Source of the DNA: a plasmid | Length of the DNA stretch: 64,000 bases | Sequence record: NZ_CP102478.1 | Strand: one strand, 5' to 3' | Shown: in pieces, positions 45,001-48,000 of the stretch | Position numbering within the stretch: position 1 is the stretch's first letter | Layout: each line of letters starts with the position of its first letter | Made by a program: the position numbers

Positions 45001-48000
45001 AGCCGGTGGAAAAATCCTGGAAGAGCCCGTTTGGCTTTTTTCCCGTCATTTCTGGCTACCCCGCAAAAGCTCGGTAGCTCGTTCCTTCGCTGAGTCACGC
45101 GCACGTCGCTCCGCGGTCATATCGCTGCGCGACACGATCTCAGTCAACAGGAACTCGCAAACAAAAATTGCTTCGACGAGTTGCGTCGGCAAATTTGCCA
45201 GCGTTGATTTCTGTCCGGTTGGCGTTCCCGTTCCAGATAGCTGCCTAGCTTCTTGCAGCAATGTATCGGCTTTCGCGATAGACGCGTCGACGGATGCGAT
45301 CAGCCGGTCGACCGACTCGGCGAGCGCGCCGCGCTCGGTGAGACGTCGGGCATATTCGGAGAATGAGACGCCGCGGGCCTGGGCGGTTTTCTTGTAAAAA
45401 CGGACAACGTCGGGGGTGTCGCGAAAACTGACGCGGCCGGTTTCGACGCGCGAGGAAGATTTTCGTGAGGTCATGAAAAACGCCTGGAATGAAAAGAGCG
45501 GGCGCTCGTGGAGTCGAGGAAAAACCTCGACTCGCGCACGAAACCGCGCTCGATTACGGCCCTCATGACTGCATTATTTTGAGCGACAGTAGCATGGCGA
45601 CGAGCGTTTCGCAATAACCCATTTATTTTCATAGTGATACTTATCGAATGTCAGACACACCCGTTCTAGCTGTCTGACAACGTGGCCCAATCATGACGGG
45701 GCGGGCGCGACATACTGGCAATGTTCGCGCTTTCCGGTCATTCGGGTGTCTGACATCGCGAGCCTTAACGCAAGCCGTTTCTCGCGATACGTGGCGGCGT
45801 TTTCTCGACAGGTCGACGGTGGCTGTCTGACGCTGCAAACCGCTACCGTCAGTGGTCGAGCGGGAATTTTCTATTCCTCTGGAGTCCGAATTATATTCTC
45901 CGATTCCGAATTTGTCTGACACCGGAGGATATGACGTACAAGGGGTCGCGCTTGATCCCTGCCTCGCTTTTTTCGCCTATTTTCGTAGGTGTCTGACGCC
46001 GAAGGCACCGCGCCATACGGCGCGACACACCGCAACAACGTTGCATGGTGTGTGACGATCGTCTTAGGGGGCGGGGATTCCCCCGCTTCCTAAGACGATC
46101 GTAGCCAACTTCACTTCAGGTTTGGGCCGGTCGCGGAGCCTTCACCCGGTAAGGTACGGCGGTTCCCGCTCAAGGGAATCGGCGTAATCGGGGAAAAAGC
46201 GACGGCGTGGTTTGGATCGTGAGCGGTGGATTTTCGCCATCTTCACCTCGGAGCGGAGCGGAGCTGTTCAGTGCAACGTCGGAAGGAAGAAGGGAGGTGG
46301 AGGCAGCAGGGAATATACAGGTTCGGGGACGGCGGTAGTGTGGGCAGGACAGTAGCAGAAGGTGACGCGGTGGTGGACCGGTGAGCATTGTCCACATATC
46401 CACGGTGCCGGACCAACGGCCGTGATCGATAAAGATCACGGAGCCGGTCGCCGCGCGGTGTTGTCCACACGTCAGTGTGTGGCAACACCGGTGTGAGCGC
46501 GGGGCGCGGTGGATCTGTGGTCAATGCGGCGTCGGGAAATTTTTGGGCGTGTGCAGACGGTCGGTGTGCCGCTCGACGTCGGTGTCGGGCGGGGAGTCGA
46601 AGATTTGCGGAATGCATGCATTCCGCAAACACGTGTGACTTTCCCGCGCGCCGGATTTTCACCTAACAGAGGCAGGTGGGAATTCGGCGCGCGCCTTGTG
46701 TCGCTGGGCCGCGTCCGGATTGCGGGCCAGCGGAATAATTCGGACGCGCAGCAGCGCGGCCGAACTGGACGAAATTCGCGCGATCCACATGTCCACGGCG
46801 TCGTACGCCCGGCCGTGATCGATACGGATCACAGAGCCGGGCGCCGCGCGGTGTTGTCCACACGGTAGTGTGCGGCAACACCGGATTGAGCGCGGGGCGC
46901 GGTGCACATGTGGATCGCGCGGGACATCGAGCGCGCACGACGGATTGGGCGCTCGATCGGATTTGCCCGCTTGCGGGCAACTGGAAACTGTTCCGGGCTA
47001 TCGCGTGGTGGTGGCATGCCGGTACAATGCGCGGCGAGGGCCGATACCACGAAACGGAGAATCGTGAAATGAGTGAGCTATCGGAAAAGACCACGCGGAA
47101 GCCGCGATCGATCGAAGATGAGATCGCGAGGGCGGCAGCGAAGCTGAAAAAGCTGCAGGACGAACAGCGCGAACGGCTCCGCAAGGATCGCGAGCGGAAT
47201 CAGAAGGCGGTACTCGAGCTGCTGCGCGCGGAAGGGCTGGACGAGATCCCGGCGGAACAGTGGAAAGAGCGGCTCGAGGCTGTAAAAGCGGCACTCGCCA
47301 AACCGGGCGAGACACCGGCGCCGGAAAAACCCGCCCAGGCCGAACCGCAGCCTGCTGTCGCCGACGGCGCGTCGGTGTGATCGTTGGGGCAATCCGGCGA
47401 AGCGCGAAGTATGCGCGGAGCGGGATTGCCCCGATTCATTTGCGCAACGCGCAAACTGGATAACGCATTGGTCGCGGGCTGGCGGGTGGTCGCGGCGTAG
47501 CGGCGAGCGCCCGCCAGCCCGCGACGCCGCGCAAAAAATCCCGATTCAGGCGTGCTCGTGTGCGGTCGCCGTCATGGTGAGGCCGAGCGCGCGCACCACC
47601 GGCAGGAGCGTCCAGAATTCCGGGATTCCGGCTACTGGCCGCAGGGCCGGCGACGCGATCCGTGTTCGCCGGCCCTGTGGCCTAGTAGCCGAGCCAGTCG
47701 AGCACCTCTTTCCCTTCGTATTCTTCGCGGTCGCCGACGTCTGCCAGAAACTCGGAAAAATCCACGAAGTGCTTTTTGATCTCGGCCTCGGCTTCGGCGC
47801 GCGTCACGGTCATCTCGCACGCTTCGAAGTAGGAATATGCGGTCATCGGTTCATCCTCGCAATTGGATCGTCACGGGTGCTCACGGCAGGTAACGGGACC
47901 AGTCGCCAACGTGCAGGGTTGAAAGCCAGAAATCGTATGCGCCACTGTCGTATGCGTCGGTCAGTTCCGCGATTCGCGAGAAACGCGGCGTATGGAGAAA

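What the first reader, a model, noticed from the sequence alone, without database searches (positions are those of the whole stretch)
46054..46101. 48-bp nested palindrome as oriT nick-region candidate
Perfect 14-bp arms (ACGATCGTCTTAGG) flank an inner palindrome GCGGGGATTCCCCGC. The structure lies ~600 bp upstream of the MOBF relaxase operon. MOBF oriTs typically have an inverted repeat next to nic. It has no U-tract, so a terminator is unlikely.
Basis: partly seen in the sequence, partly recalled or inferred. Interest (0 to 1): 0.55.

Follow-up and report, generated by a model that had tools for sequence, protein, structure and literature searches.

The report
Conserved hairpin beside a plasmid nick site
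The palindrome is real and lies in the transfer origin of the Burkholderia cenocepacia Ptw plasmid, but it is a conserved hairpin on the first-transferred side of the predicted nick, not the small repeat the relaxase reads.

Summary
The palindrome exists at 46055-46102, one base off the reported span. It forms a 22-pair stem with two G·T pairs and an ATTC loop, and is far more stable than shuffled sequence. The window's PtwA and relaxase are identical to those of the B. cenocepacia J2315 (Ptw) plasmid. By inferred coordinates, the published 700-bp functional oriT fragment would contain the palindrome; its nick was never mapped.

Across about 30 related MOBF loci the invariant block is GCAAC-NNN-GTTGC-(G/A)TGGTGTGT|GAC. 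It matches the mapped F and R100 nick regions at 8 of 9 spacer bases. This predicts nic between T46053 and G46054.

The relaxase-type repeat is therefore the 5-bp repeat at 46032-46044. The large palindrome starts at +2, on the leading side of nic. Its outer stem differs between clades but stays complementary: 15 of 27 pairs changed on both sides, and 0 of 500 shuffles matched. Its GCGGGG/CCCCGC tip is conserved, and mismatches favour folding of the transferred strand.

It is not a terminator, a repeated element or a promoter. The most likely role is a single-strand hairpin acting in nick processing. That role is inferred, not shown.

The parts
46055..46102 (+). Large hairpin, the finding itself. 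Arms are 46055-46076 and 46081-46102, with loop ATTC at 46077-80. It occupies +2 to +49 relative to the predicted nic on the transferred strand. The conserved tip is GCGGGG/CCCCGC (46071-76 / 46081-86).
   Evidence: Searches show the sequence and its stability. Searches show it is conserved with covariation in 21 non-redundant relatives. Searches show the mismatches favour folding of the + strand.
46045..46054 (+). Predicted nic core ATGGTGTGT|G. Cleavage is predicted between T46053 and G46054.
   Evidence: The core is invariant as (G/A)TGGTGTGT GAC in 30 of 35 sources and occurs once per locus. The family form GTGGTGTGT matches 8 of 9 bases of F GTGGGGTGT|GG and of R100 GTAGTGTGT|GG (oligonucleotides in PMC3074121); the window's own ATGGTGTGT matches 7 of 9. 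Cleavage was not tested experimentally.
46032..46044 (+). Small inverted repeat GCAAC-AAC-GTTGC. It is the candidate relaxase-recognition repeat, equivalent to IR2 of R388 and the 5' hairpin of F, and lies 9 nt 5' of the predicted nic.
   Evidence: The proximal arm GTTGC is invariant, the loop is variable and the distal arm is less conserved. This matches what TrwC requires (PMC4176350).
46025..46053 (+). Composite hairpin ACACACC[GCAAC AAC GTTGC]AT GGTGTGT. Its outer 7 pairs could sequester the nic spacer. The outer stem is present only in some clades.
   Evidence: One search gives the fold of 46005-46110 (-43.6 kcal/mol, z = -8.9). One search shows ACACACC is present in the Ptw group and in L024 but not in the family as a whole.
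46009..46024 (+). Hairpin CGCGCC-ATAC-GGCGCG. The stem is conserved in the Burkholderia Ptw-like group and the loop varies.
45650..45997 (+). Cluster of six TGTCTGAC repeats at 45650 (inverted), 45671, 45747, 45824, 45913 and 45990. They are probable binding sites for the accessory protein PtwA, and one overlaps the -35 of a promoter-like site (45918 to 45890, minus strand).
   Evidence: six of the seven copies in the 64 kb lie here. Relatives carry their own GGTGT-NNNNN direct repeats at the same place.
39711..45474 (-). DNA-transfer operon: ptwA (45046-45474, 142 aa), the coupling protein ptwB (43130-45049), a DsbD_N-domain ORF (42696-43133) and the MOBF relaxase ptwC (39711-42530).
   Evidence: One search gives the Pfam assignments (TrwC, TrwB_AAD_bind, DsbD_N). 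One search shows TrwC of R388 is the closest solved relative. One search shows identity to J2315 proteins.
46384..46528 (+). Y-shaped structured element 1 on the leading side. It carries the DnaA-box-like motif TTGTCCACA.
46776..46922 (+). Y-shaped structured element 2 on the leading side, 87% identical to element 1.

Best explanation
The palindrome is a conserved hairpin of the transferred (+) strand. It forms the leading-side flank of the nick site in the Ptw-type MOBF origin of transfer.

**Shown or strongly supported by sequence**
- The oriT core reads 5'-GCAAC-AAC-GTTGC-ATGGTGTGT|G-3'.
- Nic is predicted between T46053 and G46054.
- The small 5-bp repeat, not the palindrome, has the position and conservation pattern of the relaxase-recognition repeat.
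- The palindrome begins at +2 and is kept as a structure across the family.

**Inferred mechanism**
- Once the region is unwound, or extruded from supercoiled DNA, the + strand folds into this very stable stem.
- Folding stops the first roughly 50 nt of the T-strand from re-annealing.
- The 10-nt nic core is then left as the only unpaired stretch between two stems, available for cleavage by PtwC at initiation.
- The same arrangement would present the core for the strand-joining reaction that ends transfer.
- The conserved GCGGGG/CCCCGC tip may in addition be read by a protein such as the relaxase helicase or ssDNA-binding domains, the coupling protein, or a priming factor.
For: 1. **Identity and experimental context.** The window's proteins are identical to those of the J2315 Ptw plasmid. 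A 700-bp fragment adjacent to ptwA is a functional oriT (PMC4853378).
2. **Nic prediction.** The motif TTGC(G/A)TGGTGTGTGA occurs exactly once per locus in 30 of 35 sources. It always lies about 3 kb upstream of the relaxase gene, on the strand opposite the Dtr operon. The repeat-spacer-nick geometry and sequence match F and R100 and R388. The Dtr operon sits on the 5' side, as in R388.
3. **Strand and direction.** Methylase, DUF932, DUF3717 and other genes to the right are all on the minus strand, reading toward oriT. This is the orientation expected for leading-region genes transcribed from the T-strand (PMC7736820; PMC11541004).
4. **Structure under selection.** On the MAFFT alignment A2, 79.9% of cells pair against 68.9% in shuffles (0 of 500 reach it), and 8 of 10 outer-stem pairs changed on both sides. 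On the model-fitted alignment A5, 85.2% pair against 72.3%, 15 of 27 pairs changed on both sides, and slid controls give 39-44%.
5. **Fixed position.** The first pair, A(+2)-T, is present in 20 of 21 sequences.
6. **Strand asymmetry.** There are 50 G·T cells against 12 A·C cells. The T-strand hairpin is more stable than its complement in 18 of 21 sequences.
7. **Variable geometry.** Loop and arm lengths vary, including 8-nt insertions in one arm in the B. semiarida group. This fits a hairpin better than a fixed-spacing duplex operator.
8. **Recurrence.** A hairpin close to the 3' side of nic recurs in other MOBF oriTs. In F it spans +8 to +27, in Xanthomonas it starts at +4, and in Acinetobacter it spans +9 to +35 and keeps the GCGGGG/CCCGC tip.
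Against: - No experiment maps nic in this plasmid or in any relative. The nic position rests on homology.
- The mechanism is inference only. No function is documented for the analogous F repeat in the papers read.
- R388 has no hairpin within 60 nt 3' of nic, so MOBF processing does not require one in general.
- Two relatives, Mycoavidus L017 and Rhodoferax L026, keep only the inner hairpin.
- The G·T excess partly reflects G-richness of the T-strand in this stretch (390 G against 317 C), and the sequences are phylogenetically related.
- The complement strand also folds well (-24.1 kcal/mol in the window), so a cruciform or duplex role is not excluded.
- A stable hairpin right at the 5' end could hinder helicase loading or passage through the secretion channel.
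- The mapping of the published 700-bp fragment onto window coordinates is inferred. No ORF boundary was found at the expected 46424.
Confidence: 0.6

Rival explanations
1. One reading: the 48-bp palindrome is the relaxase-binding inverted repeat of the oriT. Nic would then lie a few bases 3' of it (around AGCCAACT|TCAC) or inside its left arm (ATCGTCT|TAGG, which resembles R388 ATTGTCT|ATAG).
For: MOBF oriTs do have a repeat 8-9 nt 5' of nic. The window sequence ATCGTCT|TAGG resembles the R388 nick (one search compared). In pMSMB2035 the bases after the palindrome read CGTATTGT, as in R388.
Against: Neither candidate sequence is conserved, even among close Burkholderia relatives. GACGATCGTCTTAGG becomes GACGAGCTTGAAAGG, and AGCCAACT becomes AGCGTTCA or ATTGTTCA. 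In contrast, GTTGC(G/A)TGGTGTGTGAC is invariant across relaxases down to about 51-55% identity. The palindrome's proximal arm varies freely, whereas TrwC needs a sequence-specific proximal arm.
Confidence: 0.08
2. The palindrome acts as duplex or cruciform DNA. It would be either a symmetric binding site for a dimeric protein (PtwA, a host factor or a cruciform-binding protein) or a supercoil-driven cruciform whose extrusion destabilises the adjacent GC-rich nic region in the donor.
For: The symmetry is near-perfect and both strands fold stably (-25.1 and -24.1 kcal/mol). The tip sequence is conserved. The nic flanks are GC-rich (0.54-0.71 in relatives), unlike the AT-rich R388 flank, so a non-AT melting aid is plausible.
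Against: Outer half-sites are not conserved in sequence, and their spacing changes between clades. That argues against a fixed dimer operator. Mismatches are biased to G·T on one strand. The obvious accessory-protein repeats (TGTCTGAC) lie on the other side of nic. Cruciform formation cannot be tested with these tools.
Confidence: 0.17
3. It is a single-strand initiation signal on the incoming T-strand, serving as a primosome or primase entry site for complementary-strand synthesis in the recipient. This is a special case of the ssDNA-hairpin reading.
For: It is a stable T-strand hairpin at the first-entering end. The tip is conserved. Other structured ssDNA elements follow it on the leading side.
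Against: It has no promoter hexamers and no DnaA-box-like motif. The downstream Y-shaped elements are better candidates for priming. A primer made at the extreme 5' end copies almost nothing until the strand is recircularised.
Confidence: 0.1
4. It is an RNA element: a transcription terminator or attenuator separating leading-region transcription from the ptwABC operon, or part of a small RNA.
For: It is a very stable stem lying between two co-oriented gene blocks.
Against: No U-run follows it on either strand, in the window or in relatives. On the minus-strand RNA the G·T pairs become A·C mismatches. Rfam gives only sub-threshold miRNA-like chance hits. Its position is locked to the nic core, not to a gene end.
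Confidence: 0.04

Closest known systems
Ptw plasmid oriT of Burkholderia cenocepacia K56-2/J2315 (Fernandez-Gonzalez et al. 2016, PMC4853378)
   Same: This is almost certainly the same locus. PtwA (142 aa, 429 bp) and the relaxase are identical to J2315 proteins. The layout is the same: an F-like T4SS, an R388-like ptwABC operon, and a long repeat-rich intergenic region upstream of ptwA. A 700-bp fragment next to ptwA was mobilised.
   Different: The paper did not map nic. It expected nic in AT-rich segments and reported no resemblance to the R388 nick. It did not single out this palindrome, the small repeat or the GTGGTGTGT core.
F and R100 oriT nick regions (TraI; MOBF12)
   Same: The transferred strand has the same order of elements: a 5' repeat, a 9-nt spacer, then nic. 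The spacers are GTGGGGTGT|GG in F, GTAGTGTGT|GG in R100 and GTGGTGTGT|GA in this family (ATGGTGTGT|GA in the window). The family form matches each of F and R100 at 8 of 9 bases. F also has a repeat 3' of nic, TTGGTGGT-GAGA-ACCACCAA at +8 to +27. Leading genes and transfer genes are co-oriented.
   Different: The F 3' repeat has 8 pairs (about -8 kcal/mol) and starts at +8. Here the stem has 22 pairs (-25 kcal/mol) and starts at +2. The relaxase here is TrwC-sized (939 aa) and closer to TrwC in sequence. The accessory sites differ.
R388 oriT IR2-nic (TrwC; MOBF11)
   Same: TrwC is the closest solved relaxase (211 bits). The Dtr operon lies on the 5' side of nic on the opposite strand. R388 has a repeat plus an 8-nt spacer, GGTGCG-TATTGTCT|A. 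The Ptw core shares 9 of 14 positions, including the U-turn bases G22, T23 and T25, and has a purine at +1. TrwC mobilises the Ptw oriT at about 1e-7.
   Different: R388 has no hairpin within 60 nt 3' of nic, and its flank there is AT-rich. Its leading genes diverge from oriT.
Frpo/ssi single-strand promoters and priming signals of plasmid leading regions
   Same: These are structured ssDNA elements on the T-strand of the leading region that function only when single-stranded.
   Different: The palindrome has no -35/-10-like hexamers and sits at the very 5' end, with nothing downstream of it to transcribe. The two Y-shaped elements at 46384-46528 and 46776-46922 are the better analogues.

Membership tests
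MOBF-type origin of transfer (nick region) | A MOBF relaxase and a coupling protein are encoded next to it. | tested here: met
   Pfam finds TrwC plus AAA_30 in the 939-aa ORF and TrwB_AAD_bind in the 639-aa ORF. The closest solved chains are TrwC, TraI of pCU1 and TraI of F.
MOBF-type origin of transfer (nick region) | A conserved nick core homologous to experimentally mapped MOBF nicks. | tested here: met
   GC(G/A)TGGTGTGT|GA is invariant in relatives. It was compared with F, R100 and R388 oligonucleotides quoted in PMC3074121 and PMC4176350. This is sequence homology only.
MOBF-type origin of transfer (nick region) | The cloned fragment is mobilised in a relaxase-dependent way. | not testable with these tools
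   Published for the Ptw 700-bp fragment (PMC4853378). Assigning that fragment to window 45475-46175 is inferred from protein identity.
MOBF-type origin of transfer (nick region) | The cleavage position has been mapped. | not testable with these tools
   It is not mapped in the literature read. Here it is only predicted, at 46053/46054.
Relaxase-recognition inverted repeat (IR2 of R388 / 5' hairpin of F) | It lies 5' of nic on the transferred strand, 8-9 nt from the cut. | tested here: not met
   The palindrome lies at +2 to +49, which is 3' of the predicted nic. The small repeat at 46032-46044 meets this feature.
Relaxase-recognition inverted repeat (IR2 of R388 / 5' hairpin of F) | The nic-proximal arm is conserved in sequence among plasmids with related relaxases. 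| tested here: not met
   The palindrome arms differ completely between clades, and 8 of 10 outer pairs changed on both sides. GTTGC of the small repeat is invariant.
Intrinsic (factor-independent) terminator | A GC-rich stem followed by a U-run. | tested here: not met
   No T-run follows it on either strand, and the scan does not report it.
Repeated extragenic palindrome (REP-like) | Many dispersed copies. | tested here: not met
   There is a single copy in 64 kb even with 3 mismatches allowed. In relatives it occurs once per locus, at the oriT.
Frpo-type single-strand promoter | -35 and -10 hexamers paired within a long imperfect stem, upstream of leading genes. | tested here: not met
   No promoter-like hexamers are found in the stem. 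No gene lies downstream before the strand end.
Known RNA families (Rfam 15) | A score at or above the family gathering threshold. | tested here: not met
   The only overlapping hit is MIR4374 at 21.9 bits against a gathering score of 105.

The most novel reading that the evidence does not exclude
The first roughly 900 nt of the transferred strand would be a conserved module of single-strand structures with separate jobs.

- **The nick-abutting hairpin (+2 to +49).** It would cap or ratchet the entering 5' end and hold the nick core open for the relaxase.
- **The two Y-shaped elements.** These carry DnaA-box-like TT(G/T)TCCACA motifs in their stems. They would act as DnaA-dependent (A-site type) primosome entry sites, starting complementary-strand synthesis in the recipient.

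If this is right, Ptw-type plasmids of high-GC Betaproteobacteria use folded DNA where enterobacterial plasmids use AT-rich melting and Frpo promoters.
Probability: 0.2. Interest if true: 0.65.

Novelty: new variant of a known kind. Interest (0 to 1): 0.45.

Why it matters
The Ptw plasmid matters for B. cenocepacia virulence and plant pathology. Its oriT was shown to work in 2016, but the nick and the recognition elements were never found, and the authors saw no similarity to known nicks.

The comparison here gives a base-precise, testable nick prediction: T46053|G46054, in a core shared with F and R100. It also assigns the recognition repeat. Both hold for a whole family of MOBF plasmids in Burkholderia, Delftia, Aromatoleum, Paraburkholderia, Acinetobacter and Xanthomonas.

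The comparison also shows that a hairpin on the leading side of nic recurs in MOBF origins and is under structural selection. It is extreme here, at 22 pairs starting from +2. No role is assigned to it in the literature read.

If the hairpin is needed for initiation or termination, that would add a cis element to the standard relaxosome model. It would also improve oriT prediction in GC-rich plasmids, where AT-richness is a poor guide.

Tried and rejected
- **Rfam.** Scanning 45000-48500 at a permissive threshold gave only chance miRNA- or sRNA-like hits far below the gathering scores.
- **Terminator and promoter scan.** Nothing was reported at the palindrome.
- **IHF consensus.** WATCAANNNNTTR has no match anywhere in the window, so no IHF site can be proposed from consensus.
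- **R388-like nick inside the left arm (ATCGTCT|TAGG).** Rejected because the sequence is not conserved in pBTU, pMSMB2035 or pRF23.
- **Nick 8 nt 3' of the palindrome.** Rejected for the same reason.
- **Hairpin CGCGCC-ATAC-GGCGCG as the recognition repeat.** Rejected because it is confined to the Burkholderia Ptw-like group.
- **G-quadruplex.** Only two G-runs are present and one of them is paired, so this was rejected by inspection.
- **Fetching the J2315 plasmid record directly.** NC_011003 and AM747723 are not in the collections. The link was made through exact protein identity instead.
- **Checking the published 949-bp intergenic length.** No ORF boundary falls at 46424, so the coordinate mapping remains an inference.
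- **Sigma-70 hexamers in the Y-shaped elements.** None was convincing by eye. The DnaA-box-like motif was the only clear sequence signal.
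Full report
**Observation.** The inverted repeat is real.
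- The perfect 14-nt arms are at 46055-46068 and 46089-46102, one base to the right of the reported span.
- The inner palindrome is GCGGGGATTCCCCCGC, 16 nt rather than 15.
- GG at 46069-70 faces TT at 46087-88. As a single strand the element is therefore one continuous 22-pair stem with two G·T pairs and the loop ATTC.
- As ssDNA it folds at -25.4 kcal/mol against -9.2 +/- 2.3 for shuffles (z = -7.1, 0 of 200).
- It is unique in the window and has no T-run after it on either strand.

**Where it sits.** To its left, on the minus strand, lies a DNA-transfer operon:
- a 142-aa protein at 45046-45474;
- a TrwB-type coupling protein at 43130-45049;
- a DsbD_N-domain protein;
- a 939-aa TrwC-family relaxase at 39711-42530.

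The relaxase domain is closest to TrwC of R388 (211 bits), then TraI of pCU1 (188 bits), then TraI of F (165 bits).

To its right, also on the minus strand, lie small genes typical of plasmid leading regions. These are DUF3717, DUF6900, an orphan N6/N4 DNA methylase, LPD29 and DUF932.

The closest plasmids are Burkholderia MOBF/MPF_F conjugative plasmids. The 142-aa protein and the relaxase are identical in sequence to CAR57770.1 (B4EQJ8_BURCJ) and CAR57767.1 (B4EQJ6_BURCJ) of B. cenocepacia J2315. The window is therefore the Ptw plasmid or a near-identical copy.

Fernandez-Gonzalez et al. 2016 (PMC4853378) reported the following for Ptw:
- The 949-bp region upstream of the 429-bp ptwA gene contains a functional oriT.
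- They narrowed it to the 700 bp next to ptwA, using low-frequency mobilisation by R388 TrwC.
- They did not map nic and reported no resemblance to the R388 nick.

If ptwA starts at 45474, that fragment is about 45475-46175 and contains the palindrome. This mapping is an inference, and I could not confirm the 949-bp boundary.

**Finding the nick region by comparison.** Six close relatives were aligned.
- The arms of the palindrome vary.
- The 40 nt just 5' of it, GGCGCGACACACCGCAACAACGTTGCATGGTGTGTGACGA, are invariant.

I then fetched 28 loci encoding relaxases 95-37% identical. Genera include Burkholderia, Malikia, Oxalicibacterium, Delftia, Paraburkholderia, Aromatoleum, Mycoavidus, Rhodoferax and Telluria.
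- A profile of the core finds one site per locus, about 3 kb upstream of the relaxase gene on the opposite strand.
- The motif TTGC(G/A)TGGTGTGTGA occurs exactly once in 30 of 35 sources.
- The aligned picture is a small repeat GCAAC-NNN-GTTGC, then (G/A)TGGTGTGT, then GAC. The right arm of the repeat is invariant and its loop is free.

The F and R100 substrates quoted by Dostal et al. (PMC3074121) end at nic:
- F: GCAAAAACTTGTTTTTGC-GTGGGGTGT|GGT
- R100: ...GC-GTAGTGTGT|GGT

The family spacer GTGGTGTGT matches each at 8 of 9 bases, with the same repeat-spacer-nick geometry.

R388 reads GGTGCG-TATTGTCT|A (PMC4176350). The Ptw core shares 9 of 14 positions with it. These include the U-turn bases, and Ptw has the required purine at +1. 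This may explain the weak cross-recognition by TrwC.

I therefore predict nic between T46053 and G46054 on the + strand. Three independent lines agree on strand and direction:
- homology of the core;
- the Dtr operon lying 5' of nic on the opposite strand, as in R388;
- the leading-side genes reading toward oriT, as expected for genes transcribed from the entering strand.

**What the palindrome is.** It starts at +2 of the predicted nic, so it is on the first-transferred side. It is not the MOBF recognition repeat, because that repeat lies 5' of nic and its proximal arm is conserved in sequence.

It is nevertheless conserved as a structure in nearly every relative.
- On the unguided alignment, 79.9% of cells pair against 68.9% in shuffles (0 of 500).
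- On the same alignment, 8 of 10 outer-stem pairs changed on both sides, and sliding the partners drops pairing to 38-46%.
- On a model-fitted alignment the figures are 85.2% against 72.3%, with 15 of 27 pairs changed on both sides. That alignment leans toward the structure, but the unguided one already shows the effect.
- The first pair, A(+2)-T, is present in 20 of 21 sequences.
- The tip GCGGGG-loop-CCCCGC, preceded by a G-run, is conserved in sequence.
- Mycoavidus and Rhodoferax_a keep only this tip.
- The Acinetobacter relatives keep it behind an A-tract.
- Loop length and arm length vary, and one Burkholderia clade has an 8-nt insertion in one arm. This speaks against a fixed-spacing duplex operator.

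**Which strand folds.**
- Non-Watson-Crick cells in the stem are G·T 50 times and A·C 12 times on the + strand.
- The + strand hairpin is more stable than its complement in 18 of 21 sequences, with means of -18.3 and -16.3 kcal/mol.
- This favours folding of the transferred strand. Two caveats apply: the sequences are related, and this stretch of the strand is G-rich.
- Folded as one piece, 46005-46110 gives three adjacent hairpins at -43.6 kcal/mol (z = -8.9). G46054 is the only unpaired base between the second and third hairpins.

**Mechanism (inferred).** The hairpin most likely acts as folded single-stranded DNA in nick processing.
- Once the region is opened or extruded, the fold would keep the first 50 nt of the T-strand from re-annealing.
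- The 10-nt core would be left exposed between two stems, for cleavage at initiation and later for rejoining.
- The conserved tip may be read by a protein.

Other roles cannot be separated by sequence alone:
- a cruciform that helps melt a GC-rich origin (GC 0.54-0.71 in the model matches; the R388 flank is AT-rich);
- a symmetric protein site;
- a priming signal.

A terminator or RNA role is unlikely.

**Comparison with known origins.**
- F has an 8-pair repeat at +8 to +27.
- A Xanthomonas MOBF plasmid has a 13-pair hairpin from +4.
- An Acinetobacter plasmid has a hairpin at +9 to +35.
- R388 has none within 60 nt.

A leading-side hairpin near nic is thus recurrent in MOBF origins but not universal. 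The Ptw family has the largest and the closest one. None of the papers read assigns it a function.

**Verdict.**
- The origin itself is already known experimentally at 700-bp resolution.
- What is new here is the base-level nick prediction, the assignment of the recognition repeat, and the covariation-supported hairpin abutting the nick.
- All of this is computational and needs the experiments listed under next steps.

Noticed in passing
window 46384-46528 and 46776-46922 (+): Two Y-shaped (three-way junction) elements of about 145 nt, 87% identical to each other. As ssDNA they fold at -52.6 and -64.4 kcal/mol (z about -8.4 and -8.9). Homologous copies lie in the same orientation 300-650 nt on the leading side of the predicted nic in Delftia, Paraburkholderia, Oxalicibacterium, Aromatoleum and Burkholderia relatives, with 10 compensatory pairs. 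All three TTNTCCACA (DnaA-box-like) matches in the 64 kb fall inside them, and relatives have TTTTCCACA. They may be DnaA-dependent single-strand initiation sites, or ssDNA promoters. There is no Rfam match.
   Followed up: partly
window 45650-45997: Six of the seven TGTCTGAC copies in the 64 kb cluster between ptwA and the predicted nic. One overlaps the -35 of a promoter-like site (45918 to 45890, minus strand). Relatives carry their own plasmid-specific GGTGT-NNNNN direct repeats at the same place. These are probably PtwA (ribbon-helix-helix) binding sites or operators.
   Followed up: partly
window about 45984-45988: There is a sharp homology break. Plasmids from B. cenocepacia 'toggle' strains, pBTU and others match the window at 77-93% identity from here rightward through nic and the leading side, but diverge to the left. 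This suggests modular exchange between the accessory-site/Dtr module and the nic/leading module.
   Followed up: no
window 42696-43133 (-): An ORF with a DsbD N-terminal (thiol:disulfide interchange) domain sits between the coupling-protein and relaxase genes. It is kept there in all close relatives. This is an unusual passenger in a Dtr operon.
   Followed up: no
window 53931-54914 (-): An orphan N6/N4 DNA methylase lies on the leading side. It is probably M.BceJIII (pBCA072), the single-strand-specific methylase described in PMC7736820. This identification is inferred from gene order only.
   Followed up: no
window 47464-47531 (+): Another long GC-rich hairpin of more than 20 pairs lies between Y-element 2 and the first leading gene. 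Rfam picked it up only as a chance miRNA-like hit (26.9 bits against a gathering score of 80). No T-run follows it.
   Followed up: no
L040 4879-4955 (-), L041 about 3572-3640 (-), L034 557-594 (-): The same nick core, GCGTG(G/A)TGTGT, preceded by a short repeat, is found upstream of MOBF relaxases on Acinetobacter baumannii and Xanthomonas citri plasmids and in a Sphingomonadales contig. In Acinetobacter the repeat is GCACC-GTTA-GGTGC, close to IR2 of R388. The nick prediction may therefore extend well beyond Burkholderia.
   Followed up: partly
window 47069-47380 (+): A + strand ORF of about 103 aa is annotated as a hypothetical protein at the equivalent place in all close relatives. It is the only + strand call in an otherwise minus-strand leading region, and it has no Pfam domain recorded in the contig look-up. 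It may be a spurious call over structured DNA.
   Followed up: no
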